DNA of 64,000 bases from Phoronis australis (taxonomy: Eukaryota; Animalia; Phoronida). The stretch lies in NCBI GenBank assembly GCA_002633005.1, contig NMRA01000014.1:332187-396186 (forward strand), written 5' to 3'. Below, piece after piece: positions 1-48,528 of this stretch; position 1 is the first letter of the stretch, and every line of letters begins with the position of its first letter. Under the pieces are notes generated by a model, which did no database searches, was not told where the DNA came from, and saw nothing but the letters and a program-made list of their open reading frames with translations. A program made the position numbers and the translations under genes.

Positions 1-810
1 AAAATAAAGTTTTCCCGAAACTGAATCTTAATAAAAGGAAGCTTGACCTTCGACTCAGCTATAATTACGTCAGGCAGCTCCCAACTACCCGTCAGTGCGC
101 TCGTGGCCTAGACCAATTTTTACTCTCCGTAAATCTTTGTATGTTTACGGTTACTCAAATCCTGATGGCTGCAACCCCGGTATTACCCCCACCTATGGCG
201 GACGTGGAGGTGGGGTTCGGTACAAATATGCTGACATCCAGAGAACTGGGGCGTTGACGATAGCAAGTGTGTAGGTTGTCGATGTCAAATTGTTTTGTGC
301 CCCCCAATATTTTTTTCTTTCCTACTGGCCTGCAACACGACCAGCATGTCCAGTTTCTGGTGGGTGGGGAAAATGAAACAGGGTTTCTCAAAAATCTACA
401 CACTTCAACGCCTGAAGTTCAGTTCCCGTGGATCCCTGAGATTCTGCGCTGACCTATTGCATGGTATATCTTATTTTTAACGTGGTTGCACGGGAGTCAG
501 ACAAGCAAACAATTTAGTTCTTAAAGACAAAAATCCATTGTTCAATACTACTAGAAAATAAAAACACCAAGGAAATACAAAAACAACTTTTCCAAGCAAT
601 GAGTTTGATTTTATTTATTTAAGGATTTTTAAAGCTTTTTTCGATCTACGGTTTGTGAGTCTGAATTTCATCAATGTCTTTAAGAGTTATTTTAGAGAGG
701 CAAAATCTTCTAAGCGTACATGTACTTTACTATTTGAGGATCGGATTACAGAGTTTTTCAAACTTCAGACTCCAATTAAATTCACGGAATCATCATCATT
801 TCTAATTGTC

Positions 811-1536
811 TGTCAGAATATAGACTGACACTGTTTTTAGTTGTATTGTTTTGTTTTGTTTTGTTATTTTGATTGATTGGCATGACCCCTGAGTTAAGTA
901 AAATGATGATGTAATTTGTTTACTGCAGAATAGTATGGAACTTTCTAGAAGACTAAGGTCAGAACAGTGATGATGTCATTTATTCACTGCAGTATAGTGT
1001 GGAACTTTCTAGAATGACAATGATTAATGCAGTCTGAAATATTCTGTAGAATAGTATATGTTTGTAGAATGATTGGGTAGATTCAGGAAAGTTCTAGAAT
1101 GTGCTTGAATTGATATAAAGTTCCAGAACAATGCATTAGGCTATAAATACACAAGCACGGGTTTGTGTTAGGGAGATCAAATCAGTTCAAGAAAGTTAAT
1201 CAGGAGAATTGCAGTTGAGTTGCAGTGAAGAGAATAAGAAGTTACAGCGACAGTCAATAGAGAGCCAGCTATAGAGACAGCAGGTTATTGAATCGACGAG
1301 TGTAACAGTTGCTGAACGTGTCTCAAAAGTTCATCACAAGTCAAGGCTTCGCAGCACTGGCAGGAGCATAGAACGGACATTACGTCGGACGTTTTGTTTG
1401 AGTACGCTTGTAAACATACTGTCGGGATTAATAAAGGATTAACTCGAACCAGTCTTCAGTCAATCGTCGCACCTAAAGCTATTACCACAGGTCTGTAACA
1501 ACCTGTGCCCACCCACACACAAGGAAAAACGTGACA
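811..1536 (+). mobile_element. Solo LTR (Gypsy/BEL-type)
   Basis: Starts TGTCA and ends TGACA; perfect 5-bp TSD TTGTC (806-810, 1537-1541); TATAAATA near 1142; AATAAA near 1430; internal duplicated tgatgatgt...ggaactttctagaa blocks. Confidence 0.85.
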
Positions 1537-1914
1537 TTGTCATCTATGACTCTATCGATTTTTGTTGATACATAAACAAGTAAAATAAAAACCGACGAAT
1601 TTGATAATCAAAACAAAATGTTATAAGCAATTTCCGCAGGCATGCTCGCAGATTATTGACGGGTAACCGGGAGAACATGGGAGATGGGGCATTCGTATTA
1701 AAGTGTATTTTTGCTCATTTCAGAGGTACATGTGCCTATAACGGTTCACGAGGTAAATTTGAACTCCACTGACAAAAAACGCTGAAATCATTGTTTATGA
1801 TTGCGAGAGTCCTTTGAGTACCCCATTCTGACATGTACGCGGTCAACAGAAATAGTAGCATAGACAGCCGTATTTTCCACATGCGGAAATTCCTTACAAA
1901 CAAACCATAGTAGC

Positions 1915-2183: not shown

Positions 2184-4876
2184 GTAACCATCTTCAAAAG
2201 AGATACTGTTCTTGTGGTACTATGGGAAACTGTAACATTATTTTATAGCTAACCATCGGAAATAGTCTTTTTCTGTAATTCACATATAGTGGTCTTCACG
2301 TTCTTCAAAATTAAACCCTTTTGATGGCGGTCAATCTTATTGCATTTTGATCACATTTTTTGGTTGTTTGGGTCGAATGTCTTGATACTGCTGTGTTGGG
2401 CACGAATGTACGCTAGTACGCTCCGAAAGAGCTTTGCTTTACAAATTTTCCCGATTTTTCGAAATATATGTACGAGTGCGAATGGTTACTTGCACATTTT
2501 CAAGTGCGTTTAGACGACCTGTGCTGCAAAAGCGGAGACCCTATCAATGTTCTGGCCAGGGTCCTTAAAAGGTAAACCATGCACTGTTGGTTAATGTTCT
2601 CTTAGAATTTTCTCTCTTATCCGTATTTCGCAGTCTTTCTTTTCTCTATTGTACGCGGCCCCACGCCTATGTCGGTTGCCACGGTTTAACCCTGACGCTT
2701 GAGAATTTTTAGGGGGTCGGTGCCCCCGCTTCCTAGGGCCCTGAACTAACAGTGGGGTACGAATGACGAGAGAAAGGTCTAAACAGAAACGGGTAGGTAA
2801 CTACTGGGGTGTACAGTGTATTCACTACAGATTGTATTGAGATAGAACCCTTATGTCCATGTTTAGACCTCTGGCGGAAAACTCATATCATTATAAAGCT
2901 CCTTATCATTTCTTGATAGTGTATGATTATGCCAAAAGAAAATGTAATAGATAATTTGATTCAGAAGAAAATATAATTTCCCATTCCTGGCAGGTTTATT
3001 TGTTCAATTTTAAAAACCAAGAGTGTTACCAAAATGCGAAAAAATAACAAGTTATATCCTATCAAGGCAAATATTTTGTAATATGGAACCCTCTAAGTAG
3101 CTGTGAATAATTTAGTTAGGCATACATCCAATATTATACATCTTTATATATCACTCAGACCTTTGTTGCCGTTGGATGGGCGTCGACATTTACAAAAACC
3201 CGATAAACTATATTACTCCAACGAACTATCCCAATTTGTAGATAAATGCTTTCTGAAAGTTAAAGAACGAGCAAACTTCTACTGTGCAGCAATTAAATGT
3301 ACTCTGGATAAATCATTACATAGGTTGCAGTGTAATGTTTTTCGTAGTAGTTCATAAATAACTCACTTCTTCAGAAAACAAAAATTAGTGCTCCTGATAC
3401 TTGCAGCGTATGTTACCTAAAGGAGAGACATTGGGACACATTTTTATGATAGTTATGTTACTAAAAAATGGACTCTGGAAAATAAAAATATTCATGACGA
3501 AGAGATAATGTTATTTTGAACACATGTTGCAGAGCTGTCAACATTCGAGAATTAAGAAACGGGACAGTTGATTTGAAAAGCGGGATTTTAGGATGGAAAA
3601 CGCGACATCTGGACATCTGGGCCTATACCAGAACGTAAGTGTAAAATGTTCGTCGCAAAACATAAAAACGTCCCGACCGCGTTTTTTTTGTCTAACGGGA
3701 AACGTAACACCCAAAAGCGAATGGGAAAGACCGTGAGCCTCAAAAACTCATGAAACGTCCCATTTTTTCTTTTTAGTCGAAGAGACAATTTCGCGTGAGA
3801 TATTACATTGTGCATATGATAAAATTTCAGTTTTGCCATGTGTCAAAAAGCGGGACATTTTTACTGTGTGGCGGGATGGTGGCAAAAATTCAAAAAGTCG
3901 GATAGAGCAATGCAGTTGGAAAGTACAACGTACGTTTTCAACAACACAAAGTATTGGATTGGATACTTTTACAAGATAAACGTTTCATGTTTTAAATTTT
4001 ATTTCACGGATACAGGTAAATACAATATATACCTTATTCATAGCTCAGAAATCGAATTAACAAAAAGTATCTCGGCAACAGGTAAACCTTGCACAAATGA
4101 ATTATTATCAAAACAATAAAACAATAACAATATTTACATGCATATATACATACACTCTTAGCTACGCAACTGCATGTAGTTTTTCGGAAGTAACGTAAAC
4201 ACCCTTGTTAGTGTAGTCTAAACTTTTCATTGTAGAACAAACACTCAAAAACCAAATGTCACATCTTTCCGTAAAATACAGTAACCCAAAAAATATTAAA
4301 ACACTCCTTGTTTGATAGGTTGTCGACAGTGTGTTCTAAGACTAGAGCTGAAAATACATCAGAGGCCACATTATTCCCGGCACCCAGCCAGAACCAAAGG
4401 TCGTTGTGTACTGACTCATGTTATTGTCGGGTGTGTTGACCAATTTTGCTGGGAAATCGCTGGTTGTCTGAAACTGTACATCAACAGTCTCGCTTGGTGA
4501 ACGAAAATAATAAAATGAAAACGATGCTTTCAAATTGGGCTTGGCTTCACAACTATATACACGACTCGATCAAAGCTCAGTCCAGGAGACAACCGGGAAT
4601 TCACAATGTAAACTCTTGCAGCAAGTCTCGGGGCGCAAGCTTTAATAATAGAATACATAGGTTAGGTGCGGGAGTTGACATTACAGGACCAGAGTTCTTT
4701 GGTTAGGCGCTTGCTAACAAGTCATGCCGGAAACCAGCTAGGTACATGACCGTAGAAATATTCCCGATTTGAACCATTCAGAGGCACCGGAATAGCGGAG
4801 CTGCAACGCCGCCATATTGGAAATGGGTCAGAATGTTGCATTGTGGTCGATAAACAAGTACGCCGGTGAGCGTGGG

Positions 4877-6137: not shown

Positions 6138-9100
6138 CATAGATTATAGCATAGACTATAGTACATGGACCGCCAACTCCGTATACTTTCAATGAACGAA
6201 ATCTGTGACCTTACGCACAAGCCCTTACATGTACGTCATTATTCACTGGCGACATCTGGCTAAATTATCTGGTGCAATTTCCGGCAAGTACGTCGTCTGC
6301 TAATCATGGTCGGCTACTATGTGGCCTGTTGTTCGGCCACACACGCGAAATGCAAAGGAAGTAGCCTCCATACCATCTGAAGACCCCATAATCGGCTGTG
6401 GGAAGAAAACCTTACTTCTTGTGTCAACGTGAATGGCAGTTGTTTCAGCAATAAGACTTTATACATTTATTCAAGGCACTTCGAAGATGAATGTTTTTAA
6501 GAGCCTCTACTACTTAGTCTTAATCCTGTCTTCACAAATCCATTTTTGTTTTCTCAGTTTTGATGAAAACTATCTGGTAAATTTTTTGACGAAAATTATC
6601 CGCTAAATTTCTTCCAAAGGTGGTGACTCGTAAACTCTTGTCCTTACGAGGAAGTTCAGCCATAGCCTAGTGTACGAATTAACCAAATTACTCTTCGCTG
6701 GTCCTGATCAGACGGTTGGTCTCAGCAGAATGCGCACATTTGGCCAGGATTTGGATCAGCGATTTCAACACATTCACATTCGTGTACAAATAAATAGAAC
6801 GCTGGTAAAACCTTTAACATGAATAAAGATTACATTAATACTTCATAAACAAGCACCTGGACCAGTCAAAATCTATCTCGCAATTCAACAGCAGGTTACA
6901 TACTCATTTCATGTCGAATACATGCCGCACAAAATCTCTCGACTGCCGTCTATGAAAATGCAACCAACTTCTTTGAAAACATGGAACAGGAACACCAGCG
7001 GGGTGTAAAGGTTGTTTTTATTCTTCAGTGTTAATTTTTTGTAAGCGGACATATGCTTTTTTAAATTTCCGCCTTAAGTCCTAACATTTCTAAACTTAAG
7101 TCTTTCAAACGAACGTATATGACGAAAACAAAATTCTTCAACCAGATTTTTCAAGTCCTTTGCCACCTGTAGGGTACATAATGAGCCAATCCCACTCCTA
7201 ATGTAACAAAATGTGCGTAAAGGATACCAAGTATTGCCCTTCTGAAATATTACCGTATGCGCCCTACTAATCGGCCCGGATGCTTAGAAAAATCCGCTTC
7301 ATGAAGGGGGCGCTTATTATAGCCCAAAAGTGGTTGAAACCCGGTCTCCGAAACAGGTGAAATCGTAAGCTAGAATTCATCAAACTTACGCTCTGTAAAA
7401 GCAACACTTTGTATCTTATTCTTATTTGACCAATCTGTTGATACAGAAAATATCCTTATTTATGCCCATACTGATTTGACTGCAACTTGAGCTTGTTGGG
7501 TTCTATCATATGGGTTTCCATTGGGACCCACATGATGCTTACACGAATGGGCTTTATTTTACCAAGTATTTCAAATTGAGGTGAAGTATCATCACCAGTA
7601 TTTCATCATTAGTATCTTTTGCCGGGTTCTCAAATTTTCAGAGACTAGGGATTGTCAGATTTGTAAGGTACAAGTGTTTCGCTGGATTTCCAGGTCTGTG
7701 GCGTTATTTATACCTGACCAAAATTAAAAAACAGACCTTGATTTAAATCAGGAGCTGCATCATACACATTTATTAGACGTGCGCAGGCATTGCACTGATC
7801 ACTTGGAACCATTTTATGGTTTATTAATATATAGTTAAACCAAGCTGAGGAGCTTGAAACCTGATTCACGGCAATTTTTGGCAGTGGTATTTTCTGAAAA
7901 ATGCTCGTAAGTTGGCAACAAAGTTTGATAGCAATGCACTGCAGTTTTGTAGAAACTCTGTTCATACAGTAGGTTAGAGATGCGTCACAGAGCGTAACTT
8001 TAATGAATTCTAGCTTACGATTTCACCTGTTTCGGAGATCGGGTTTCAACCACTTTTGGGCTATAATAAGCGCCCCTTCCTGAAGCGGATTTTTCTAAGC
8101 ACCCTGACCGCTTATTAGGACGCATACGGTAATATTTCAGAAGGGCAATACTTAGTATTCTTTATGCACGGGACCCTTTTGTTACATTAGGAGTGGGATT
8201 GGCTCATTATGTACCCTACAGGTGGCATAGGACATTACAAAACTGGTTGAAGAATTTTGTTTTCGTCATATACGTTCGTTTGAAAGGCTTTAGTTAAGCA
8301 ATGTTAGGATTTAATGCGGAAATTTTAAAAACCATATGTCCGCTTACAAAAAATTTAACATTGAAGAATAAAAACAACCTTTACACCCCGCTGGTGTTCC
8401 TGTTCCATGTTTTCAAAGAAGTTGGTTGCATTTTCATAGACTGCAGTCGAGAGATTTCGTGCGGCATATATTCGACATGAAATGAGTGTGTAACCTGCTG
8501 TTGAATTGCGAGATAGATTTTGACTGGTTCGGGTGGTTATTTATGAAGTATTAATGTAATCTTTATTCATGTTAAAGGCTTTACCAGCGTTCTATTTATT
8601 TTTACACGAATGTGAATTTGTTGAAATCGGTGATCCAAATCCTGGCCAAATGTGCGCATTCTGCTGAGACCAACCGTCTGATCAGGGCCAGCGAAGAGTA
8701 ATTTGGTTAATTCGCTCACTAGGCTATGGCTGAACTTCCTCGTAAGGACAAGAGTTTACGAGTCACCACCTTTGGAAGAAATTTAGCGGATAATTTTCAT
8801 CAAAACGAAGAAAACAAAAATGGATTTGTGAAGACAGGATTAAGTATTAAAAGCAATCATCTTCGAAGTGCCTTGAACAAATGTATAAAGTCTTATTGCT
8901 GAAACAACTGCCATTCACGTTGACACAAGGTTTTCTTCCCACAGCCAATTATGGGGTCTTCGGATGGTATGGAGGCTAATTCCTTTGCATTTCGCGTGTG
9001 TGGCCGGACAACCGGCCACACAGTAACCGAACATGATTAGCAGACGACGTACTTGCCGGAAATTGCACCAGAAAATTTAGCCAGGTGTCGCCAGTGAATA

Positions 9101-9184
9101 ATGACGTAAGGGCTTGTGCGTAAGGTCACAGATTTCGTCCATTGAAAGTATACGGAGTTGGCAGTCCATGTACTATAGTCTATG
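6138..9184. mobile_element. Foldback DNA transposon with about 1.2-kb TIRs (P superfamily, Galileo-like, non-autonomous)
   Basis: Arm 6150-7396 is the reverse complement of 7987-9184; termini CATAG...CTATG; 7-bp TSD ATGACAG (6131-6137, 9185-9191); 590-bp spacer without coding capacity. Confidence 0.85.
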
Positions 9185-10053
9185 ATGACAGCCGGTTCAT
9201 TATGCAGCGCGCGCTTTTTGGCCGCGTGCTAACACTGGTCGATTTTATTAGTCTTCGGTGATTCACGGTTTTCACGTGTACAAAGAGGTTTGGATTCCTG
9301 TTGAGGCCGGAGAAGATCTGTCCCGGAAAGATACAATGCATTCCCCCTGACCGTACAAGTACGCTGCGTGTGATTTCAAAGTGCAAACCATAGTGGGGCA
9401 CATCCCTCGCAAGAGCAGCAAAACTTTTGCGTTCTTTTTGAATCGCGGCGTAAGTTTGAAGTGTATACGGACATAACGGTCAGGCTCGTGGTCTACAAAT
9501 CCAGGACTGTCGGATCTTTCAGTTGATAAATTGGAGACGTTAGAACTGTAGGTAAGGCATTTTTCGCATGTAGTTCATGGGCTGGGCGCTTACTTTAAAG
9601 CGAAGTCTGAAAACGCGTTGGGGCACTTATTGTGGCATGGGCGCTTATTAGGGCAAATAGCTACAGAATTACATACAGCAGCGTAATTTAATACACACAA
9701 TCCACACGTCGCGCAAACCAATCGGCCATTCCACACAGGTTTATCAATCCCAATAGCCTTTGCGCACCCTAATTTCCGGACATGCGCAGTCGTTAAACGA
9801 CTCGGCTGCAACTCCGCTTTTGAACAAAGGAACAGTTCAACATTAATCCAGCTAACTTGTTTGTGCATCCGTTCAACTTTCCTTGTCTTTGGTTGAATTA
9901 GGGAAGGCAGAGAACTACATGTACACATTTTACATCCACTGATATTTGTCAATAGATTTTATCAAATACTGTTCCTTTGGAGTGGCAACCCAAAGCACAG
10001 CAGTAACACTTTTTTGTACTGGAAGGACGAAAAGCGAAATGCAGACAAGGAAA

Positions 10054-12345: not shown

Positions 12346-12605
12346 TTAAATTTTTGTGTCTTCAATATCTACACCATTTTGAAGTCCAATATGGCTGATA
12401 TTTTGCAGCGTTTCAAAATAAAAATTCTTCAATCCATGTTACACGCATATAGGTTTTGACAATCTCACTTCCGTTTGAGATGTACAAATACACCTACACT
12501 GTACAGTGATATTCTGGCCGCCATTATAAAATACAATTTGGCTGCAACCACGTTGATTCGTTCAGAAGTTCTTACATAAGTTCCCTGTGGCATATTGTGT
12601 AAAAT

Positions 12606-13622: not shown

Positions 13623-13917
13623 TTAACCCATTTTTAATAAAGGGGTGTACTGTTTTTGTCTCATGTTGATAGTGCATAGCTTTTGGTTTTAAATGTATTA
13701 ATCGTGTTAAATGCATATATATATATATGAACTCGCCTCATTGAGATGCACAGCAGTTAAATTTACTATAACACATTAAAGTTTTGAAAATATAAAGAGC
13801 AGTAACAGACTCTCTAAAAACCAGGCTTGTTTTCAAAAGGTTTGCGCCATTGGTGATCTGATTGTTTCAATCGCTTGCGGCGAGAAAATGACCCAGTTAT
13901 TGTGCGCTTGTGCACTG

Positions 13918-14412
13918 TAGCAATGCTTTGTACATGTATCTTATTTTTATTTGTCTAATCTGTTGATACAGTAAATTTCCTTATTTATGCCCATTCTGTA
14001 ACCGCGACTTCAGCTTTCTGGGTTCTACCATATTGGGGCTGTCATAGGGCCTCACGTGCATGGGCGCATCCAGCCTTCACAATGAGGGGCTCGAATTCCT
14101 GACGTTATTGAACTTTTGCTAACAAAAGAGCGGGCAGACCTTTGGGTGCGCGCATGACGTGGTGCTTACTCGAATGAGTTTCATTTTAGCGGCTATTTCC
14201 AATTGTGTAGGTGAAGTAAATTAACAAAGTGGATGATTATCATCACCGGTATTCTACCATTAGTATTTTTCTCGGTTTCTCAAGTTTTCCGAGGCTAGTG
14301 ATTGTCACATCTGTAAGGCAGACGTGTTCCAGTGAACTTCCATGTTTGTGGCGTTATTATACTTGACCAAACTTTAAAAAAGAAGCCCGCGTTTAAACCA
14401 GGAACTGCATTG
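13918..14412 (+). repeat. Dispersed copy of the foldback spacer sequence
   Basis: Aligns by eye to about 7400-7760 (ctttgtatcttatt...aatctgttgatacag...ttatttatgccca...ggagctgcat). Confidence 0.7.
14059..14156 (+). mobile_element. hAT5-like MITE, copy B
   Basis: TIRs CATGGGCGCATCCA / TGGGTGCGCGCATG; TSD ACGTG on both sides; empty site with a single ACATG in the paralogous sequence near 7530. Confidence 0.8.
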
Positions 14413-14830: not shown

Positions 14831-17649
14831 GGTTGAAGTAGCCGGTAACACTTGCAGTAGTCGTTAAAGATGGAAACATTCACATTTGAAACAGTTTTAG
14901 TGGAATAGGCACAAGATTTTTGAGACCTTTTGACAGTATATAGTTTCCATGTTTTCAGGGTTTGTACCCCACTAATGATAATAGTTTTTTTCTGAAGACT
15001 TTAACTTCAATGAGCCGGTTGCGTGTGATATATCCAGTGATATTTGAGTGTAATGCAAATTATCAGTTTGACAGAATTAGATCCAGACACAGACGGACAT
15101 TTCTTCAGATCGTCCTCTGCGACATCACAGAACAAAAGAAGTATTTTTATTGTGAAAGATATCTAAAATTTTGCTTAAGGTTATGTAGGGCCATAGAAAA
15201 ATTTCAAAATTTGGTTATAATGCGTGATTTTCTCATACGAAACTTCCAAATACTTTGCTTCATGCATCATTCATTAAATGGCTCTTAGGAATTGTTTTTA
15301 TTTGTTTTACATGTATCATATTTTGCATAATAGGATATCGACAACATGAATATGGTGATTTTCATTAAACATCTTAAAGTGCATGAACAAAAACGAAATA
15401 ATGGGATCCAATAAATGGCAGATCGTTGAAAAGTACAAAATCAAATTGTACAAGTTTTCTACTTTCAGAAAATAAATACTTTTACTAAGTTAAAAATTTT
15501 GTAGATATTTGGCTACTTGTGTGGGCTTGTCAGCGAGATATTAATAGCCTTAAAAGTTCCAATTTACACCAGAAAAAATACAAGGAAGTGTCTCTTAACT
15601 TTGATGTTTATTATAATAGAACATATTCCAAAAATATGGTTGAGAAATTTCATATGCACGATAACCCTGTTTACTAAGCGAAGTACACGGGAGTTCTCAT
15701 TGGGATTGCGCTGACGTCAAAAACTAGTTTCAACAAGAATGAACAGTGACCTAGAGATAAAGACAGTATGCAATACCGTTCTTCTTCCAATTAAAGCCCA
15801 TGGAACACAGGGCAGTAAATTTCAAGGAATTAGCGAGATATTGTTAGAATTAGCAGAGAAGTATAGTTTAATTTTGGTTACCACGACAACAAAAACAGAT
15901 TACATATCGTCGGCTCTTACACCATACGGTGATGAATTCTCCAAGTTCTCTTTCCCGCTGCCAGCCCCCAATCCTCTAAATGCAAGATGGAACAAAGAAC
16001 TAACAGAGATTATTTCAAAGACTGCAAATCCACGGAGTGTATTTAACCAGAAGGGTTGATTTTCAAGCACATAGACTAAGATCACAGTACCAGTGGATGA
16101 TTTTGACCTTATCACTGGCCCAGGTCGATCAAAGCCCTTGTTTGCACAGCTGTCTCAGAAACCTGGAAAAAGCATAACTGACATAAAGAACACTGCATGG
16201 GTTTTTTCAAAAATGAAGAAATTCAACAAAGCCATGCCTTTTTTACCTTGCTACATCACCGTGAAAAAATCGAGATGACAAATATGACCAAAAAGTGCGA
16301 TTTTAGCCAAATTTTACCGAAAATCACAAATTCACAAATGTCCCGGTGATAAAAAACATCATGCGAATGCTCTTTCACTCAAAATTGAAGAACTTTGGTA
16401 TAAAATATGTCATTAAGAAACAGATTATTGACAACTGCCACTTACTTGAAGGGTACCAGGATTCGCACCAAGAATTCAAGACCTTGCAAGGCTGTGCTTT
16501 CAAAATGGCTGCACTTCCGCATCCTAGTAGACAAGAGCACTTGCAAAATTTATGAACTAGTTTACTCAAAAACAACTCTAAAGAACTACTGACTACCATT
16601 TGTGGCAATCACTTCCAATTTAGTCCACAAAACTGCCGCCAAACCCGACCCACCCCATTTTATTTGGGAGTTACAAGGGCCTGTATCGTGCAGGACTTAG
16701 ACCCATGTTCGTGGGAGAATCTTTTTCAGCATAAGCATATATTTCGTAAAGTGTGGTAACTTCGGAGTGAAGGACTTTGGACGCTGGTTTACCCGAGTTA
16801 CGGTCTAATATGTTCAAAACAATCACCCAGTTCAGCCGACAGAGAAAGGAGCATATACGTAAGTGTATTTGCTGGAATTACATGAGAAAAAGTTTTAGGC
16901 AGACCGATTATGACTGATGTACAAAATGTCAGGTAATACCAGACCTGTGCATGAATGTACTTATCGTCGTCTTCGTCGAGATTGCCTTATTAAGGGTGTT
17001 GCTTGTGCTGCTCTGATTTTAGGACCTGACGGGCGACTTGTAAGAACGGTCTGCACAAAAGTACGTTAGTCATTGAATTCATGTGATTTTACATACATGT
17101 AAACATCAGTGAACGCCTGATTCTAAAGCAAACACTCTGCTCGTGTACGCAGGCATACAGAGGCGATGGTACACACCGAGGACCTAAAGTCGTGAACGTA
17201 ATCATTTAGCCGGTTTATTGACGTACCCACCGATCTTTTTCAGTAACTAATTGTGTGGTGTAGTAAACATGATTAAATCCTCACAAATGCTCAACTGTAC
17301 TCACAGTTAAAACACGTTTTCAATCCATAGACAGTTTTTGCAAGACTTATGAAAACGCCGGTCATTTTCTTTGAGGCCCTAAACAAGGATTGCAGAATAT
17401 GTACACTTCTTGCCCTAAAGCCGTGACCATGCGACCCTCTTTCTTGTAGACGGGAAAACATAATAAGGCCAACCAAAATTGTGATTTTTAAATTTTAGTT
17501 AAGAAAAAAGATCATTTGTAGTTGTTAATAATCAAGTTTTAATTAGACCAGTTAACATGAAATAACCAGCATAGTTCATTCAACCATTTCGTGGTTTCTG
17601 AACCTGACTGTTGTTGCTGTTATTCTCTCCACATGCCTTGATAGTCACC

Positions 17650-25682: not shown

Positions 25683-26139
25683 TTTACAAGAAGGGAGGTC
25701 AATACAGCTTAGACGACCAGGTTGCATTTTCGGCTGGCACGAAGCCGAGTGCGCGCTAAAGGCTGGGTGAGGCTGGCACGTACAGTTGTAAGGTGACCAG
25801 TAAATAAATATTGACAGACTGTTAACTGTCTGAGAAACTCATTTTGGTACTTGCTGTAGATATCTAACTCGGGTAGTAGAAAAAGCTTAACGTGCTTCAA
25901 CAGCAAAGTTTAAAGAAACGGTTAAGCCTATGTTACAATATTGACAGCCATCGATTGGGATTTTTTTACAGAGAGCTCGGACCTACCTTCTGATACAGTT
26001 CACTGCAACATTACACGAACTATGTATCTTTAACTCGTGAACTTGTTCAAAAGGTGCACATATGAATGAAATGGGAGTTGTTAAAGAAACAGTTTTTTAA
26101 AACCGTGTGTGCTTCAGGAGATTTGAAAAGCTCCTACAA

Positions 26140-26520
26140 CTCAGGGACCACTGACTAGTGGGATCATATAGCTCATTGCCCATTGTCTAATGTGATTCTA
26201 CTGCTCAGAACCCACTCACTAATATCCTCCTACAGGTCAAGGCCCATTTACTAATTTGCTCCTGCAGATCAGAGCTCACTAACTACATGTAATGTGCTCC
26301 TAGAGCTCAGATCTCACCAACTAATGCGCTCCTACAGATCACAAACCACCAACTAATGTGTTCCTACATCTCAAGACACACTGATTAATGTGCTCCTACA
26401 GCTCGGAGCCCTCTCGCTCATACACTCTTTTAGAACTGGGCCTACACAACAATGTGCTCCTACAGCTCAGAGTCCACTCACTAATTTCCTCATACATCTC
26501 TGGGCCTACTAACTAATTTA
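26140..26520. repeat. Degenerate minisatellite, unit about 33 bp
   Basis: Repeated cactaactaatgtgctcctacagctcagag-like units, about 11 copies. Confidence 0.8.
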
Positions 26521-27306
26521 ATGTCACCCTCATATGTTTCACTGGCTTAATTCATAGCTTGCATTCTTTAAGGGAAACGAAAAATGCGTTCTTTCATATT
26601 GTGCTTGTTTGCTATCGCATATATTCAGCTGATCGGCCCAGGTCAAGTCTACCTAATGCAAAAGAAAATGTTTCTCATTCGTCTACAAATATCGTTAATT
26701 TACAATGCAAATGCCACAAGCCCGTCGTAAAACCATATTTACATGTACGCTTTCCTTCGCAACCACAGTTAATTTGTAAAATATGGCGACTACCGTTGTT
26801 TTGCAAGTGACCGTCGCCCTGATTGCCTGGAATTGCAGTCCAACCTCGTTACAGTGTACCCTACCCAGAAAGTTGAGAGGACTATAACGTACAAACGGGC
26901 AAGTTCCGATTTAAGCCAATGAATGAAACTCTACCCTGGTTGGAACGAAATATCAAACGTAGTTAATTTGAAGGTCCCTTGTAGACGTTGTAAAAGGTTA
27001 GACTCTATTTGCTTGATTAACGTGTTGGAAATACTAGAGAGTAACCAGGTGTCGCAAATGTTTTCTCAGACCCAGCGCTAAATAACAATAAAATTTGGTA
27101 GTCTCCTCAACTGAATCCAACTACCGGCACAATGACCGGGTTTGCGAAGCAATTAAAAACCACGTCGTACCAAAAATCTATATCCAAGCAAAGTATAACA
27201 TTTAACTGATAACTGAAAGGTCGCTGTGTACAAGCTGTAAGCATGAGATACTTTTTTCGAACTACAACAAATTAGTTTTCATATTGTACATTTATTGTCT
27301 TTCCAG

Positions 27307-36500: not shown

Positions 36501-39500
36501 TCTATCTTACGATTTCACCTGTTTCGGAAACCGGGTTTCAACCACTTTTGGGCTATAATAAGCGCCCTTCCTGAAGCGGATTTTTCGAAGCGACCTGGCC
36601 TCTTATTAGGGCGAATATGGTAATATTCCAGAAGGGAAATACTTAGTATCCTTTATGCACGTGACCCTTTTGTTACATTAGGAGTGGGATTGGTTCATTA
36701 TGTACGCTACAGGTGGTATAGGACTTTACAAAACTGGTTGAAGAATTTTGTTTTCTTCATAAACCTTCGTTTGAAAGGCTTAAGTTTGGAAATGTTAAGA
36801 CTTAAGGCGGAAATTTAAAAACCATTTATCCGCTTACAAAAATTTAACATTAAAGAATAAAAAACCTTCACCATTTGAGCATTTATTGCAATAATGCATT
36901 TGTCAAAGGAAGTGTAGGGGGATGGATTTTTTTTCAAATGAGAACCATTCATTACACAACACACATCCCGTGGAGTCCGCTCGGTGTTATCATCGAAAAA
37001 TTATTATTGATTACTGCAGCAGAATATTTGTGCAAGTCGGAATGTTGCGATGTTGCATTTTAAAGGTACGTGTACCAAAAGATTTCAAAAGAAATTAGAC
37101 AGACTTCAATGGAAGTCTCCCAGACTGCCAAATTTGGATAAACTTCTTACCAGAATAATTTGTTAGTTTACGCAGTCGAACTTTTGTCAGAGTTGAATGC
37201 CGACATTGTGTCTACTTCCTTAACTTTTTGTTTGTGAATGGTCTTGCGCAATAAATTTTTTTTGTTGAGATTTAGCTAGAATTGGGTTGGATTCTATTGG
37301 AAAAGAAATAAATATTTTATTAGTCTTGTCATATTGCGACATTGTGTAGTTTAGTTTGAAAAATACTGTATGCTAGCCTTTCTACCTTTACACAGGATGT
37401 TTTTTGTTGTATTGTAATTTGGTGGTATGTTGGAAAAAATAAAAACTTAGACCTGTCCATGCAGATATTGTTAAAGCAAAGTCACATTCTTATTTTTAAA
37501 TATCTTTACAAACTATCCACCATTTTCGTTGTAACATGTATCGTCTCCATAGACTCCGGTCCACCTGCACTAACATGGAAAACGTGTTTTCTGTGATCCC
37601 CTGAGCTTTCCAAAAAGAATGGGCCCAACTCGAGGGTTTCATTTTTGTCTATGAAAGTGTCTCATTAAAGGTATTAAAATTTTTATAAAATTGAAAATGT
37701 GAAACCCAATACTGTTTTAAGTATTGGTTAAATTTGGAATTATGTGGAAGACGATTGCTAATGTGTTAGAGTAGTCTCAAGAACAGGAATTGCGTTTACA
37801 GTTTATTGTAATCTGCGAGAGAAAGCTTGCTTCACCGCATTTTTTTTGTAAAATGAAAAGGCATTGATTCCAAGTTTGCTTATTATAGGGAACAGTATTT
37901 TGTTCTGATTTAATTTAGCATACAGCTTTGTACCAAGGCAAGAGCGACGGCTGGTATCCTATGTCCGCCCTCTTAGACGACACCTTTTTCGCAGAGTTTA
38001 AGCAACTAGGTGCCATACAAAAAGGCGTGGAGAACTTTTTACTACACTGGCAGTAAATAATAAGAATTGGTGATGCAATGATGAAACGCGATGTAAACTC
38101 TATCCACTCAAGCCGCAATATGGAGCAGAAATGTGTGATAAGTAGTCGATGTCCTATCAACAACTGACACATCAGTCAATCAGATTGCTGTCAGCATTAG
38201 TGTTTTTACAATAAAACGTGAATCAGCTTTTGTTTGGAGCGCAATTTGGGCAAATGTGAGTTTTATTTGTATGTTAGAACCGGTTTACTGCTGCATTATT
38301 TTTACAACAGTCATCTTTTAAACTTGGCACTGGGTAAAAATTAATCGCTGATAATTTGCAGGGACAGAAAAAATGTTCATGATGTCTTGGTATCTTTCAG
38401 ACATAGGGTTTGTAAAGCGAAAATAGAATGGCCTGCTTAAACGTGGAATTCGGAAGAAAATAATTGTCAATGTGTTCAATAAAGTCTCAAGATAAGAAAT
38501 AAATTGTGCTTACAACATATTGTTACCAACCACAGAATGTTTGGTTCACCATGTGACTTTGTAAAGCTAATATACAATCATTCTACATGTAAGTTTAAGC
38601 AAAAGCGTGGCTTGCTTAAACTTGGAATTTACGGGGTAGAAAAAACTCGGCCACAAGTCTTCCGAAATTAATGGAAAATGCATAGAAAGTTTATTGCAAC
38701 CAGTTAATGAATGTTTAATTCTCCTCTTGATCAAACATCAAGCTTTATTTTTATATTGGAATGTGCAGTATCACAGAAATAATACGACTCAAATGGCCAC
38801 CGTAGCCGTAGGGCTATGACCTTGAATGCCCCGTCCATTACTGAGGGAACATGTAATCACAATACAGTCCTTAAATGGTTTTTTATTCCAGTACCTCTGT
38901 ACTAACCAGTATTCATGGCCAGGCCACGGTAGCTTTATCTCGATTTTTAGAAATCTTTTCTCTCCGTAGCCTACCAGTTCAGTAACGATTTCAGCCCAAG
39001 CGCTTTTTTCTGTGTGTGCCAGGCAGCCGCTTAATTCCAAGTTCACGTACGGGGTGTGGCAGTTTGCTTAATCTCAAGTTCACGCAACACTCACTTCCGC
39101 TTATTCTTGAGATTAAGCAGGATTCCAAGTTCAAGTACAACATCATTGCCAGTCCTCACGATGTCAGGGAATCCCATTCACTCTTCTTAAATTTGAAGCC
39201 GCCGTTGGTCACCACAGACTTGACGTGTCCCCCAGATGTTGTCTGTGCTTGAGAATATAAGTCGTGATCACACAATGAAGAGTAATGAACTGTCAGATTT
39301 GTTTGGAATAGTGGAAATTCCAAGCAGTGAATTTTAGAAGATAACGAACCTGCGGAGTAGTGGACATTCGGAGTACTGGACTTTCGGAGTATTGAACCTT
39401 CGTCATAGTGACATGGAACCTTGGAAATCTTTTACATCAAGTTTGGAGCTCTTATAAAGTCTGTAGGGTTGTGCACCATTGACATTGATTGACTAGAGAA

Positions 39501-42500
39501 GATTTTCATTGACCAATGGGGAGGTCCAGGCCTACTTTTCCGGCATACTCGGCGGGTTATTCTCAGTGCAAGAAAACACGGTAGCTAAAAGTCTGGTTTT
39601 TGAGCACGACAGGGTAATGAACTCACTGACTTTAGAACAGAAACGCTCACACCTGTACACGCATGAATGTCAATCCACCAATCCACAATCAAAGTGGACA
39701 CTGGATGAACAACATATTTGCATATTTGACGATCACTTTCAATTCCCCCACACTTCTACCGCGCGTAATTGCTTGCAATTAAACCAAAATGGCAGAATAA
39801 CAAATTTCAGTTTTCTGGTGTTTGGTTTCTTGGCCGAGTTTAAGGCATTCACGCCACACTATTTTTGGGGAGCTCTCTCCTTGTACATGTAGCTCACTTA
39901 GCTCGTAATGCTATACTTTTATGCTTACATGTATGTATAGTAATTCATTTCTAGACTCCCATGTTACCCTTTGGTGTAGCCACTACGCGCCTAGTTTATG
40001 AATAACATAAAGCCTCCTCTTATCGTATGCACGATCCTGTCATCTACACAAACAACCGCACTCGGGCGAATTCGGCCGAGTACAGCTCGATGCCACGTGA
40101 ACCCCCTGGCTGTAACTATATATTAATAATAAAAGTAAAAATGTGAAACATAAAGTAGAATCAGTATTAGATTCAACTTCAAATCAGTCACGAATTCCAA
40201 AAAGATTATACGCAGCGGTTGGATAACCCCTACCCCAATATGGATGCCCGAGGCCGTCGCCACGAGGACTGAATGCCATATATAACATCTATTAATAATT
40301 AATTTGAACGTGTTTTATATCCACTATGAAGACAAAAAGCGGACAGTTCCATTGCCTGCATAGCTGTGTCGTGCAAATGAAATGATCGCCAATCTAACTA
40401 ATCTGAAAAACTACCAGGACTCGTTATTCCCACAATTTTCCCCATCTGGCGTAGTTTGGGCGGTACTTCAGCATTGTCGGGGAAGATGTTGATACAGCTA
40501 CGTGCTGACGTCTTTGGTTTAGACGCATCTCTGGAGTTCTCTGTGGGCTCGGTTTATGAGAAAGATGTAGATTGTACAAAACTGATCAGCTTTCCCAAAT
40601 TTGCCATTAATCACTTTGTGAAATGATAAAAGCTGGCGCGCATACAGCAAAAGACGGCATTTCGATTATTCCTGGTTTTAGCAGTTGCATCAAATGACTC
40701 GTCCGAAGACAGAGGGAAGCTCACTGGTATAATAGAACAACGAAAAATCAAATTTCGTGCAAAAACAATGTGCCATCCCTCAAGGACGGATTGTAGGTTT
40801 TGTTTTTAATAGTGAATCAAATGGAGTATTCCGCTGTTGTGGCATAGACTTGCGAAGTCGCTCCAACCGCAGGCGCGATGTTTCTGGTTTTCATGTCTGA
40901 CGTAAACCTGCGGACAAAAATCTCTCACCTTGTGTGGTTACTTATGTCGTACGGACTCACTGGCTTCATTAAAAATCGAATTGCCTGGTTCTTCAATGTG
41001 ATGCTTATTCAACGTGAATGAGCTTATAATCAATTTTGTTTCCACTCTTCACAATTTATCTGACGGGGGCACCACACCGCTGAAATTGTATGGAATCTTA
41101 CTTTTGTGCCACGTGCGCTGCTGCTGAACATCAAGCAATTGGTTTCAAACGGTTACCTGGTGGGTTGGTCTAGCTCAATTCAGGTACTTCGGCGTGTCTG
41201 GCGGGATAACCCACCATTAGATTTGTCTTGCAGAATTTATTCTGATACCTGGGCTTACGACGAATATTTTGCAACTGGTTTCATGCTGTTACCTCTTGGG
41301 TTGATCTAGCTCAACTCAGGTATTTGGGCGTGTCTGGCGGGGCTAACCCACCACTATATTTGTCTGGCAGTATTTATTCGTCATACCTGGCTTGCGGTGA
41401 ATATTTTGCAACTGATTTCATACGGTTACCTCTTGGATTGATCTAGGTCAATTTTTACCTTGTTTATAACCGTCTGACTGATACTCCCAACACTGAAATT
41501 GTCTGGCAGTGACCAATTTTGATACAGTGAATTACATCGTAGGTATCGAAGGCAGTTTGAAGTGGTTACCAGAAAAGTTGATCTAGCTCAATTTTTGAGT
41601 GCCATTCTCTTGGCTCCCCTGACCAATCCCACCAGAGCGAACCTGCCAGACGGCCATCTCCAAGCATGAGGATACCCATAGACCACTCTGGTACCAAAGA
41701 AAATTGGTTACCTTTTCATGCCCAAAAAAGCTCTGGGATCCCGGTCTATTAGGTCAAGCGCTCAACTTTAAAACTCAATGCTTGGATTACTGACAAGTCC
41801 AGCATTTACTTTTCAAATCACGTTTGGAAATACGTAAAAATGCGCCAAAACAGCTGTCCCTTCCTGCTAATGGCTTCCTAATATTTTTTGGCACCAAAAG
41901 AGTTAGAATATTAAATTCAATGAAAAGCTATAATTATTACGCAGAAACGTCAGCTCTGAAACCAGGACTGCCCTAAACTGAGTAATGTCTAACTTGGCTT
42001 CACTCGCCGAAGGCACTGGTATGGGAGCTTCGAATTCGTTCACGAGTAGTTTGCCGACAACTCGTAGTCTGTTTCTCCGACCCATCTCCCTATCTGTCTT
42101 CCTAATACTCGTGAAGCTCACTCTCTTAGTCTTCGTTTCTTACTAAATCTCTGTTGTCCGCCGTTTAATAAGCTGTCAACTGATCAACGTCTTCCAGTGG
42201 TGAAATCACGTGACGGGACACCAAAAATGATTTATTTTCCTTCAAAATTCAACAGCCGGCAATTATTTCTCCAATCAAGTGAATCTTTAGTTAGAATTTA
42301 TGTTAAAAAATTATAGGCCTACACGGTTTAAAACCTTAAAAAGTCATGTGCAGGAACTCTTTAATGTTGACCTATTGGCATACATGCATGAATGTCATTA
42401 ACTTTTTCTGTTTTCCAGGTATGCTGATACTTCTCAGCTCCGTATGTCTACTGACTATTCCAATGTTTCCGTTATCAGCCACCACCAAATGGGGTATGCA

Positions 42501-45290: not shown

Positions 45291-46230
45291 TGTCAATTTA
45301 TCGCTCATCATCCAACCGCCGTGTAAACACGTTATGTAGCACCCTCGGGACAACACTGAATAAAATAGCGAATTACCTACAAAACTATAGAATTTATCTC
45401 GGAAAAAGCATGCATTTTCTAATAATTATGTAGAATTTGATTTTTGCCTTCACACCAATCACGTAACCATGCCTTTTAAGTAAGAAAATAGGAACAATAC
45501 GGTTTCAATAACATGAGCAATTTCGAATGATAGAAATCATCAAAAAAATTCAGTTTTCTAAATTATCGTTTGGTTTTCATTTTAAAAACAGTATGTGTTA
45601 CAGGATGTTTGATAATAGCGCCACCTGTAAATTTCATGTGCACCAAACACGCCATTTCTCAGATATGATGTTCCAAACTTGGTTAACTTGACATTTTCAT
45701 AACTTTAGAAAGCCACATGTGTTTTACTGGTGTATAATGTGGTAACCTAGCTGTCAAGAGTGGTGGCCACATGAGTACATGACACAGAGGTCGCTTGCTC
45801 ATTTATTCGTGACTTTAGACTCTTGTCCCGGGATATTGAACCAAGAATGAAGTTCATTTATTGACCGAAAATGGCTCGACTTTAGGTATATGTTCAATCG
45901 AGAATATCCGACATGAAGACATTCAGAAATTGAGCAATTATCAACTAAGATCGAAGGCTAATTAATAATATTCTTGTATCTTCGGGAACTCTTTTCTTTA
46001 ACTTCTAAAATGTTGAAATCACCATGTTGTCATGAGAGTTATTTACTCATCATTTGAAGCCTGTCTTTGAACCCTGCCTTCCCCACTGTCTCGGCACATG
46101 AACGGAACCTGTCTAACTTTGAATTGAGTACATGCGACCTCACCTAGTGGTTTAGAATAAGGTACTGGTCACCAAGTATTAGTATACACGAATCACTCCA
46201 TTGAAACCAAAAATATACATGTATGTTCAG

Positions 46231-48528
46231 AAGGAGTTATGACCTGCATCCCTAAGGGAGCAGATGAAAGTAAACCTTTTTTGGAAAACTGGAGACACAT
46301 ATACTTACTCAATGTGACGTATAAATTGGCTTCTTCGGCTGTGGCTGAACGGTTGAAACCCGTTTTGGGAAAACTAATAAGTAAGGAAGGACCAGACAGG
46401 TTTCGTTTCTGGAAGAAATATGAACGAAAACATCCGCGTGCTACATGTATATGATTTAATATTTCATGCCCAGGCAGCTAACAAACCTGGATTGCTTTTA
46501 CTGATTGATTTTGAGAAAGCATTTGATTCATTGTCGTGGAATTTTATTCAAAAAACTTTATCTGTCCTTAATTTTAGTAGGTCTATCAGAAGGTGGGTGA
46601 GTCTTTTACACTAATATTGAGTCCTGTGTTGTCGTTAAGGGCCACCCATCTTCCTGGTTCAAAATTTCGCGTGTTTGCAGACAAGGTGACCCTCTATCTC
46701 CCTACATTTTCATATTGTGCGCGGAGATTTTGGCGTATTTAATTAAGAATGATAAAAATATTGCTGGCGTAGTTGCAGGAAATAAAGAATATTTGATTTC
46801 ACAATATGCGGACGACACGTCATTTACGTTGGATGTGTCGAATTTATCATTGTCAGTCTACCACATTGGATGTACTTCATTTGTTTGCTAGTGTCCCCGG
46901 TTTCCAAGTGAATGTGGATAAAACAAAAGCCATATGGTTTGGAAGTAAAACTGCTAGTGATGACGTGATTCCTACAAAGGAAAGTCTGTCTTGGACAAAA
47001 CAATCTTTTAGATTTTTGGGGATGGATTTTGGATAGTATGACGCATAAGAACTTCACTGCAAGAATAACTGAGATTAAGCTTTTATTTAAAAGTTGGAGT
47101 CGACGAAATTTAACGCCGTTTATTAGAATAACGGTAATTAAAACATTAGCTATTTCTGAACTTTAATTTTTCCGTCAAGTTTACCAAATCCACAAGTAAA
47201 TGTCTTGGATGAATTGAATATATTTTTTTTAGATTTGTATGGCAGGCTCGTAATGATAAAATAAAACAAACCACGGCCTATTTAGGACTTGGTCAAGGAA
47301 CCTCAAATAATCAATATGCATCCTTTCAGCAAAGCTTTAAAACTCGCTATAGCCCGTAGATATCTTGAAAGCCCTGCGTCTGAAAGCGGTTTATTGCATT
47401 TGTAGATGACTTCATTAAGTCGAAGTTAGCTCTAATTGGTAATTCCTACTGGCGTGAAGTATTTGGAAGTATGACATCTTTCTATAAGAAAATAATTGTT
47501 GCAAGTAAGGACTTTTTGAATCGACCTTTGTGGTTTAATAGTAGCTTGGCGATCGGAGGCACAAGTGGTTTGTAAAAGGCTTAAGATTTATTAGAGATAC
47601 ATGTATGTATACCTCTGATGGTGATTTCGTTAGTTAAGTTTGAACCACATGAAAAACAAGTTCGATGTTAAAACCATCTTTGTAGAATATAATGGTGTTG
47701 TTTCCGTTTTAAGAAGGTTTCAAAAGTCTATTTCAAAGTAAATTTAAAAGTTTAATGTTTACACTCCTTTTATGCCTTAGCAATCACTCACTTACGGAAA
47801 GATTTGTAGGGTTGTAGGCATATTTGTTCAGTCGTTAATGACGTTAAGAAACCTTCAGAGTGTAAATGGGAAATAGAGTTAGGACTGGATAGTTTAGACT
47901 GGAAGAAAATATACGCGCTGTCTTACGAAATTACAAAGGATCCCAACATTAGATGGTTCCAATTAAGAATAATACAAAGGATTATTGCAGCAAATACCTT
48001 TTTAGTCAAAATCCGTGATCGGGATTCTAATTTCTGTTCCTTTTGTAATAAAGCTCCAGAGACACTGTCACACCTTTTTTGGGAATGTCACATTGTACAA
48101 GATTTCTGGAAGGAATTCGGACAGCTAATGCAAAAGTGTCGCATTCAGCTTCCCAACAGTCTCTCTTAGGATCGAGTTGTTCCTGGACTTTACGAGAGGC
48201 ATGATTTTCTTTTTAACATTTTGCTTCTAATAAATAGCCAAACTGTACATTTACAAGGAGAGATTTCACAGGTTTATTACAAACACTTATGACCCAGTAC
48301 TACAATGCTGAAAAATTAATTGCATATACATGTAAAAACTTTGTATATGACAGTTTCTCTGCAAAATGGGAAAATTTCATTGTTCACGTTAACTGCATGT
48401 AGAAGTTATTTACTGTAAACGAGATACGAGAATGGTCTTTCCTGGGGTGTGCATGTGTGAATGAATGGATGTACTTATTTGTTTGTTTATTTTTGTACTG
48501 TTTTGTAAATGATAATAAATTCTTAAAG
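46231..48528 (+). mobile_element. 5'-truncated L1/Tx1-clade LINE (RT + Zn knuckle), pseudogenised
   Basis: ENWRHIYLLNVTYKL, LIDFEKAFDSLSW, RQGDPLSPYIFILCAEIL, SQYADDT, CSFCNKAPETLSHLFWEC; AATAAA 48514; TSD AAAATATATGTTCAG, the left copy carrying a CATGTA insert. Confidence 0.92.

What the first reader, a model, noticed from the sequence alone, without database searches (positions are those of the whole stretch)
717..48334. Pervasive precise 6-bp CATGTA insertions at TA sites (TA -> TACATGTA scars)
Seen: I count 20 TACATGTA (717, 6226, 9916, 13931, 15308, 17094, 23400, 24257, 26284, 26740, 30453, 30822, 32431, 38584, 39884, 39926, 46216, 46442, 47598, 48327), against roughly 2 expected from base composition. 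Four have internal empty-site controls that differ by exactly CATGTA. (a) Foldback left arm gccctTA[CATGTA]cgtcatt (6226) vs right arm gccctTAcgtcatt. (b) ctttgTA[CATGTA]tcttatt (13931) vs ctttgTAtcttatt (about 7407). (c) Minisatellite unit aacTA[CATGTA]atgtg (26284) vs aacTAatgtg. (d) Left LINE TSD aaaataTA[CATGTA]tgttcag (46216) vs right aaaataTAtgttcag. Known: TA-CATG-TA is the classic footprint left when Tc1/Tc3-type elements with CA...TG ends excise from a duplicated TA. Inference: a hyperactive insert-and-excise process, or another site-specific 6-bp insertion activity, has scarred this DNA about every 2-3 kb in unrelated contexts, far more often than intact donors are seen. That would be a genome-scale mutational signature.
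Basis: partly seen in the sequence, partly recalled or inferred. Interest (0 to 1): 0.9.

Follow-up and report, generated by a model that had tools for sequence, protein, structure and literature searches.

The report
Six-letter transposon scars pepper animal DNA
This DNA carries the same six extra letters (CATGTA) added at TA sites about once every 3,000 bases; they are likely scars left when a cut-and-paste jumping gene, not found here, hopped out, which would make such scars one of this genome's commonest small mutations.

Summary
All 20 of 20 TACATGTA sites are at the stated positions, against 1.4-1.8 expected. Controls a, c and d hold; b is weak. New here: three sites lie in the reading frame of a dead LINE. 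At 46442, 118 of 120 homologous proteins lack exactly those two codons; 47598 (11 of 11) and 48327 (12 of 20) agree. The long allele is therefore the derived one, and slippage deletion is rejected. Empty-site flanks are non-random and partly match the Tc1 target consensus (P=0.0009). The +4 scar typical of worm Tc1 shows no excess. The same word is 4-fold enriched in 80 unrelated LINE loci from metagenome assemblies, and the scan noted it earlier in urchin and mollusc DNA. Best reading: excision scars of a TA-targeting Tc1/mariner/pogo-type element with CA...TG ends, with both 2-nt overhangs kept by fill-in repair. No donor element or transposase is in the window, no genome was available, and polymorphism stayed untested. 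The scar type is known. Its density, precision and rate (roughly 0.25-1 times the substitution rate per TA, from two repeats) were not found in print.

The parts
717..724 (.). TACATGTA site, no empty-site control
6226..6233 (.). TACATGTA in the left arm of a foldback element; the right arm (9108) is empty
9916..9923 (.). TACATGTA site, no control
13931..13938 (.). TACATGTA at the edge of a repeat copy; probable empty site at 7412 (weak control)
15308..15315 (.). TACATGTA site, no control
17094..17101 (.). TACATGTA site, preceded by TACA (TACATACATGTA; nesting possible, unproven)
23400..23407 (.). TACATGTA site, no control
24257..24264 (.). TACATGTA site, no control
26284..26291 (.). TACATGTA in the one 38-bp unit of a 32-bp minisatellite (11 of 12 units are 32 bp): derived insertion
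26740..26747 (.). TACATGTA site, no control
30453..30460 (.). TACATGTA site; spanned without gaps by read contigs of runs X1, X2, X3
30822..30829 (.). TACATGTA site; spanned without gaps by read contigs of runs X1, X2, X3
32431..32438 (.). TACATGTA site just before an MFS-transporter exon; spanned by an X3 contig with 1 gap letter in 2311
38584..38591 (.). TACATGTA site in repeated DNA, no control shown
39884..39891 (.). TACATGTA site in repeated DNA, no control shown
39926..39933 (.). TACATGTA site 42 bp from the previous one
46216..46223 (.). TACATGTA in the left target-site duplication of the LINE; the right copy (48529-48543) is empty
46442..46449 (.). TACATGTA in LINE reverse-transcriptase coding DNA; adds 2 residues against 118 of 120 homologues: derived insertion
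   Evidence: loose end at 46447 in 4 X2 contigs reads as the empty form in other copies (my reading)
47598..47605 (.). TACATGTA in LINE ORF2; adds 2 residues against 11 of 11 spanning homologues (27 hits, 16 not spanning)
48327..48334 (.). TACATGTA near the end of LINE ORF2; +2 residues against 12 of 20 spanning homologues (7 show 0, 1 shows -5)
46210..48543 (+). 5'-truncated dead LINE (RVT_1, zf-RVT) with its 15-bp TSD; the internal clock and polarity control, 4 scars among 185 TA
6138..9184 (.). Foldback element, arms about 1.25 kb, CATAGAC ends, 7-bp TSD ATGACAG; host of control (a), not a candidate donor
26125..26519 (.). 32-bp minisatellite, host of control (c)
2812..2820 (.). TACAGTGTA, possible +7 sister scar (5 such words vs 0.83 expected; none has an empty-site control)
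12495..12503 (.). TACACTGTA, possible +7 sister scar
26850..26858 (.). TACAGTGTA, possible +7 sister scar
29648..29656 (.). TACAGTGTA, possible +7 sister scar
30656..30664 (.). TACACTGTA, possible +7 sister scar

Best explanation
Most of the 20 TACATGTA words are 6-bp insertions at TA sites, and they are likely excision scars of a TA-targeting cut-and-paste transposon of Tc1/mariner/pogo type with CA...TG ends. Shown: the insertion, its constant sequence in unrelated flanks, its direction at four sites, and non-random flanks. Inferred: (1) the element inserts and duplicates TA; (2) on leaving, a 2-nt staggered cut leaves CA as a 3' overhang on each flank; (3) germ-line end joining keeps both overhangs and fills across the gap, giving TA-CA-TG-TA, rather than ligating one strand as in the worm's +4 scar; (4) each hop leaves one scar, so scars pile up while donors do not. 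If the TACA(C/G)TGTA words are 3+2 scars of the same element, its ends would be CAG...CTG.
For: 20 vs 1.4-1.8 expected. Direction: 118 of 120, 11 of 11 and 12 of 20 spanning LINE homologues lack the two codons; a frameshift-aware alignment places a 6-nt insertion at all three sites with 2 of 3 proteins and at two of three sites with the third; 11 of 12 minisatellite units are empty. The insert is identical in all flanks. Flanks: the published Tc1 consensus CAYATATRTG (passage in PMC9635669) scores 61 vs 43.7 for random TA, P=0.00085; -3 A 20 of 40 half-sites (background 0.31), -2 pyrimidine 29 of 40 (0.50), -1 purine 26 of 40 (0.49). In 78 half-sites from other organisms' loci, -3 A (36, P=0.008) and -1 purine (52, P=0.002) replicate. 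Tc1 breaks have non-complementary 2-nt 3' overhangs (figure legend, PMC4490562), and taCATGta is a recorded Tc1 footprint (passage, PMC3520976). The pogo element Passer targets AAGTACTT (passage, PMC9976928); -1 G is 14 of 40 here (P=0.025).
Against: No donor: 0 of 201 ORFs of 65+ aa hit a Tc1/mariner/pogo domain, and TA-flanked CA...TG inverted-repeat pairs were at chance level or internal to larger repeats. No occupied allele was seen. The scar spectrum differs from characterised elements: +4 words 48 vs 43.3 and +5 words 14 vs 12.6, and no +4 scar in the LINE that holds four +6 scars, whereas the worm's somatic scar is +4 in 78% of events (PMC13148408) and its germ-line scars are varied (PMC4490562). 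The flank match is imperfect: -1 A (Tc1) 12 of 40, not enriched; -2 A (Passer) 5 of 40, depleted; -2 pyrimidine did not replicate, 37 of 78. The predicted 3+3 word TACAGCTGTA is absent. The implied flux is high.
Confidence: 0.65

Rival explanations
1. Same class of event, different chemistry: the donor's ends read CATG...CATG and it is cut with a 4-nt stagger, so the two flanks carry self-complementary CATG overhangs that re-ligate exactly, with no fill-in.
For: Explains directly why the scar is uniform and +4 and +5 scars show no excess. A 6-bp footprint is attributed to Minos in earlier scan note e1-7787227; the 4-nt stagger is recalled, not checked.
Against: No TA|CATG...CATG|TA element in the window; the one near-perfect pair (6162-9172) lies inside the foldback's longer arms. 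It needs a second element to explain TACA(C/G)TGTA (5 vs 0.83), which the CAG-ended model explains with one.
Confidence: 0.15
2. No travelling donor: a host activity (a domesticated transposase, or a repair polymerase acting at TA breaks) writes CATG between duplicated TAs directly.
For: No donor seen. High per-TA rate. The same word recurs in distant lineages.
Against: No template for a flank-independent CATG is apparent. Polymerase-theta inserts copy flanking DNA (passage, PMC4490562), and hairpin repair gives flank-derived palindromes (established knowledge). Only 64 kb was searched for donors, where none need be expected.
Confidence: 0.12
3. The word is a selected transcription-factor site, as proposed for Phytophthora motif-1 and Irx homeodomain proteins.
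For: PMC3520976 reports TACATGTA upstream of 12,070 Phytophthora genes and cites it as the preferred Irx site (passages).
Against: Here it arises by one-step insertion in a dead LINE reading frame, a TSD, a minisatellite and one foldback arm. Selection could keep some sites but cannot create them.
Confidence: 0.04
4. The long form is ancestral and the short form arises by slippage between the two TAs, or the words are assembly or library artefacts.
For: Controls a and d alone give no direction. Runs X1-X3 are one sample and may be the source of the assembly.
Against: LINE homologues and the minisatellite show the short form is ancestral. Deletion cannot create a 10-fold excess of the long word. 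Read contigs span 30453, 30822 and 46216 without gaps and 32431 with one gap letter.
Confidence: 0.04

Closest known systems
Tc1/Tc3 excision footprints of Caenorhabditis elegans (taCATGta and the +4 scar)
   Same: TA duplication around the element's terminal CA and TG; the identical word is on record (PMC3520976 passage); flanks partly fit CAYATATRTG.
   Different: In the worm the +6 form is called rare, +4 makes up 78% of somatic scars (PMC13148408) and germ-line scars are varied and polymerase-theta dependent (PMC4490562). Here +6 dominates, is inherited, and marks about 0.4% of all TA in the window.
pogo-superfamily Passer, and Tc1-family ZB and Sleeping Beauty footprints
   Same: TA targets in a palindromic context with A at -3; Passer has G at -1 and favours open chromatin (PMC9976928 passages).
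   Different: Their footprints are 0-4 bp (Passer) or 0-3 bp (ZB, PMC7913693) and mixed, in cell culture. The +5 TACAGTA/TACTGTA words show no excess here. -2 A of Passer is depleted.
Phytophthora motif-1 (TACATGTA) / Irx homeodomain site
   Same: Same eight letters, very abundant in non-coding DNA.
   Different: Published as a regulatory motif, and the authors dismissed a footprint origin because of its abundance (PMC3520976). Here the word is shown to be an insertion in functionless DNA.
Earlier notes of this scan in sea-urchin, mollusc (TACATGTA) and diatom (TACCGGTA-type) DNA
   Same: Same reading, same missing donor (unchecked AI notes).
   Different: This window adds protein-based direction at three sites, a rough rate, and a flank test repeated on other organisms' loci.

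Membership tests
Tc1/mariner/pogo excision footprint | Insert flanked by a duplicated TA | tested here: met
   Empty sites hold one TA, filled sites TA-CATG-TA
Tc1/mariner/pogo excision footprint | Constant central bases that read as inverted element ends (CA+TG), independent of the flanks | tested here: met
   Same CATG in 20 unrelated contexts
Tc1/mariner/pogo excision footprint | Filled state is derived | tested here: met
   Three LINE sites and the minisatellite
Tc1/mariner/pogo excision footprint | Flanks follow a palindromic transposase target preference | tested here: inconclusive
   Non-random, Tc1 consensus score P=0.00085; -3 A and -1 purine replicate, -2 pyrimidine does not; neither the Tc1 nor the Passer consensus fits fully
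Tc1/mariner/pogo excision footprint | Cognate TIR element with CA...TG ends, TA TSD and DDE transposase in the same genome | not testable with these tools
   No genome held; none in the 64-kb window, which does not show absence
Tc1/mariner/pogo excision footprint | Same TA occupied by the element in another haplotype | tested here: inconclusive
   One read lay over 10 of the 20 sites; tables were cut to the best-supported rows, the second individual had about 3-fold depth, no occupied allele was listed
C. elegans Tc1-type footprint spectrum | +4 scar (TACATA/TATGTA) dominant | tested here: not met
   48 vs 43.3, upper bound of excess about 20; none in the LINE
Hairpin-type footprints (hAT, CACTA, Transib/RAG) | Added bases copy or invert the flanking target DNA and vary by site | tested here: not met
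   Insert is constant; the defining feature is recalled knowledge
Selected transcription-factor motif (motif-1 / Irx) | Confined to or conserved in regulatory DNA | tested here: not met
   Four of 20 lie in a dead LINE and its TSD, one in a minisatellite, one in a single foldback arm

The most novel reading that the evidence does not exclude
Across several marine-invertebrate lineages a single exact insertion, TA to TACATGTA, is a major germ-line mutation class, arising per TA at a rate of the order of base substitution. It is made by very active TA-targeting elements (or a donor-free derivative) and repaired almost without variation by polymerase-X-type fill-in that the fly and probably the worm lack. 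Such scars would record past transposition and accessible chromatin, and could be the origin of abundant 'regulatory motifs' such as Phytophthora motif-1.
Probability: 0.35. Interest if true: 0.8.

Novelty: new variant of a known kind. Interest (0 to 1): 0.6.

Why it matters
Counting surviving copies misses cut-and-paste activity, because elements leave. An exact, countable scar gives a record of every hop, of target choice and of germ-line repair. If it holds genome-wide it is a large, so far unmodelled part of the indel spectrum. It keeps reading frames intact, so it can add two residues to proteins, as it did three times in the LINE here. It also warns motif-discovery studies that an abundant palindrome such as TACATGTA can be made by mutation rather than selection.

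Tried and rejected
No whole genome was held, so no genome-wide count or donor search was possible. Donor search in the window: Pfam on 201 of 201 stop-free frames of 65+ aa gave only THAP, MFS, A2M/TED, RVT_1, zf-RVT and four weak unrelated hits. A regex hit TGDESW at 43931 (motifs recalled) lies in what reads by eye as a LINE endonuclease remnant, not mariner. TIR candidates 747-1048 and 34660-36916 were rejected: the first is at the level of other chance pairs, and the second spans unrelated repeats with uneven depth. The TA|CAT...ATG|TA pair in locus L037 encloses what reads by eye as a GIY-YIG-like coding remnant and was rejected as a donor. TACATGTATGTA at 47598 is not a nested scar, since the second TATGTA matches conserved codons. 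Decayed scars: 1-mismatch words 43 vs 36.7, no clear excess. In the 80 outside loci, 6 TACATGTA sites fell in aligned ORF: 1 looks like a +2 insertion (L074, 5 of 7), 2 are ambiguous, 3 are ordinary codons; enrichment there is shown, insertion mostly is not. Host taxon: two homologue searches with host exons found nothing, so 'marine invertebrate' is inferred from gene content and from the sources of LINE relatives. Polymorphism: the read lay on 30300-48700 listed only 12 of 87 gap rows and 15 of 485 joints, none a CATGTA allele; sites between 9916 and 26740 have no read data. CpG link: 0 of 20 sites in the five 2-kb bins with CpG o/e under 0.65 (P=0.03, threshold chosen after looking); largest-gap test P=0.076; suggestive only. 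Literature: 9 searches showed no paper on a genome-wide TACATGTA insertion signature in animals, but I saw only 40 of 425 listings for the bare word, 3 of 3 with 'transposon' and 'footprint', 25 of 53, 25 of 2,492 and 25 of 6,163. Subscription journals are missing and no supplements were read.
Full report
Observation. All 20 listed coordinates carry TACATGTA, and it is the most frequent 8-mer in the window. Markov orders 0-4 expect 1.4-3.3; orders 5 and 6 expect 7.1 and 13.9, but only because the sites supply their own sub-words. With the sites collapsed, orders 1-5 expect 1.36-1.77 (P<=7e-15), and no other 8-mer ranks higher under order 3. About 18 of the 20 are therefore in excess, roughly 0.4% of the 4,436 TA dinucleotides.

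(a) holds exactly: 30 and 21 identical bases either side of one 6-bp gap between the foldback arms; it is 1 of 7 gaps between the arms and the only one of this kind. (b) is weak: homology to 7410-7511 begins at the site, with 10 of 12 bases alike to its left. (c) holds: 11 of 12 units are 32 bp and one is 38 bp. (d) holds: the LINE's 15-bp target duplication differs only by CATGTA.

Direction. Against 120 related ORF2 proteins (the best 120 of 455 hits), the window has exactly two extra residues at 46442 in 118 of 120 alignments. At 47598 it has them in 11 of 11 that span the site (27 hits, 16 not spanning), and at 48327 in 12 of 20 (7 show none, 1 shows -5). A frameshift-aware alignment puts a 6-nt insertion at all three sites with P0001 and P0101, and at two of three with P0061; each protein also gives one other 6-nt call that is not CATGTA. 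Four contigs of run X2 have a loose end at 46447 that reads as the empty form in other copies of this LINE (my reading). With the minisatellite, four sites are polarised and all four are insertions. Read contigs span 30453, 30822 and 46216 without gaps and 32431 with one gap letter, so these are not assembly errors; those runs are one sample and may be the assembly's source.

Rate and age. The LINE and its TSD hold 4 scars among 185 TA (2.2%). Its 2-4 in-frame stops imply about 2-5% substitution (95% range 0.3-12%). The foldback arms hold 1 scar among 168 TA at about 2.5% divergence per arm (61 mismatches in 1,254 columns). The per-TA rate is thus roughly 0.25-1 times the per-base substitution rate. 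This rests on five events in two repeats, one of them noticed because it is rich, so it is a rough and probably high figure. One-mismatch neighbours are not clearly enriched (43 vs 36.7), which puts mean decay near 4%, at most 13%: the scars are young.

Spectrum. +4 words (TACATA, TATGTA) number 48 vs 43.3 and +5 words 14 vs 12.6; the LINE has no +4 scar. TACA(C/G)TGTA is 5 vs 0.83 (P=0.0017, found after scanning 13 spacings) and 11 vs 3.8 in outside loci, of which 3 are in one locus and 2 are plain codons. None of the five in the window has an empty-site control.

Target preference. Around the empty TA, the 40 half-sites show A at -3 (20), a pyrimidine at -2 (29) and a purine at -1 (26). The Tc1 consensus CAYATATRTG (PMC9635669, passages read) scores 61 vs 43.7 for random TA sets, P=0.00085. 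The fit is partial: -1 A is not enriched (12 of 40), -1 G is (14 of 40, P=0.025), as in the pogo element Passer's AAGTACTT (PMC9976928, passages), but Passer's -2 A is depleted (5 of 40). In 78 half-sites from other organisms, -3 A and -1 purine replicate and -2 pyrimidine does not. A sequence-selective protein, as a transposase is, likely chose these TAs.

Breadth. In 80 metagenome-contig loci around related LINEs (the best 80 of 396 confirmed), TACATGTA occurs 40 times vs 10.4 expected, in 22 of 80 loci. Of 6 sites inside aligned ORF there, one looks like an insertion, two are ambiguous and three are ordinary codons. The scan noted the same word earlier in two sea-urchin windows and one mollusc window, and analogous words in diatoms (unchecked notes, not evidence). 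The host here was not identified; an intron-split A2M/TEP gene and an MFS exon point to an animal.

Donor. None was found. No Tc1/mariner/pogo domain occurs in 201 of 201 frames of 65+ aa, and no convincing TA-flanked CA...TG element occurs in the window or the loci. No genome was held. The one read lay covered 10 sites, and its tables were cut to the strongest rows, so polymorphism and occupied alleles remain open.

Mechanism. Tc1 excision leaves non-complementary 2-nt 3' overhangs (PMC4490562, passages and figure legend). taCATGta is a recorded but rare worm footprint (PMC3520976, passages), and +4 is the usual somatic one (PMC13148408, passages). Keeping both CA overhangs requires synthesis across unpaired ends. 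X-family polymerases mu and lambda widen the range of ends that can be joined and have not been identified in Drosophila (PMC2895639, passages); that the worm lacks them too, and that polymerase mu bridges unpaired 3' overhangs, is recalled. End joining generally leaves the two TSDs separated by a few transposon bases (PMC3894167, passage). I give this route 0.65. A CATG-ended element with cohesive 4-nt overhangs (0.15) explains the uniformity more simply but not the 9-mers. A donor-free host activity (0.12) is not excluded. Selection (0.04) and slippage or artefact (0.04) fail as origins. ZB footprints of 0-3 bp (PMC7913693, passages) and a general review (PMC2874221, passages) gave no case of a dominant +CATGTA scar. 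PMC11134190, on a Phytophthora MYB factor, has the word in its abstract by the search listing; I saw only the listing.

Chromatin hint. The 15.7 kb after 48334, which holds the A2M/TEP gene and the most CpG-depleted bins, has no site (P=0.03 with a threshold chosen afterwards; gap test P=0.076). This is a lead only.

Verdict. Real, derived, precise insertions; a known kind of scar at an unusual density and purity; maker not found. Nine paper searches showed no description of it as a genome-wide signature in animals (most listings seen only in part, no supplements read). New variant of a known kind; interest 0.6.

Noticed in passing
window 6138-9184: Foldback element with 1.25-kb arms, CATAGAC ends, a 12-bp tandem duplication at the left end and a 7-bp TSD (ATGACAG); resembles P/Galileo-type elements (recalled). 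A related partial copy lies at 36144-36871 in high-copy DNA.
   Followed up: partly
window 27956-29370: Old TIR element with TTAA next to its ends and a THAP domain (Pfam E 3.6e-8); Kolobok-like by recalled features. A second weak THAP piece lies at 4991-5245.
   Followed up: partly
window 10053-12395, 21784-23315, 61300-63260: Dispersed repeat family with several copies of a CTCF-like word (motif recalled); 8 of the 11 matches with at most 1 mismatch lie in it.
   Followed up: partly
window 43850-44470: Decayed LINE endonuclease-like coding remnant, read by eye, interrupted at about 44480-44922 by a roughly 1,000-copy inverted-repeat element.
   Followed up: no
window 34550-34990: High-copy DNA whose translation resembles the C-terminal part of a hAT transposase by eye; no Pfam hit.
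   Followed up: no
window 50951-52239: 98-99% identical direct and inverted duplications around the single N at 51587; probably an assembly-gap artefact.
   Followed up: no
window 48335-62000: CpG-depleted stretch (o/e 0.30-0.64 in five 2-kb bins) holding an alpha-2-macroglobulin/TEP gene on the minus strand, with a duplicated receptor-binding exon (57470-58011 vs 58263-58792), and no TACATGTA.
   Followed up: partly
window 32580-33431: MFS (monocarboxylate-transporter-like) exon, Pfam MFS_1 E 3.3e-18; no homologue passed E 1e-10 among proteins of 460-2000 aa.
   Followed up: partly
window 46230-48400: The dead LINE has about 10-13 frameshifts but only 2-4 stops in about 700 codons, a high ratio of small indels to substitutions.
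   Followed up: no
L080 15519-15532; L060 5918-13574: A nested TACATGTACATGTA in L080, and six sites in 7.7 kb of L060, in other organisms' contigs.
   Followed up: no
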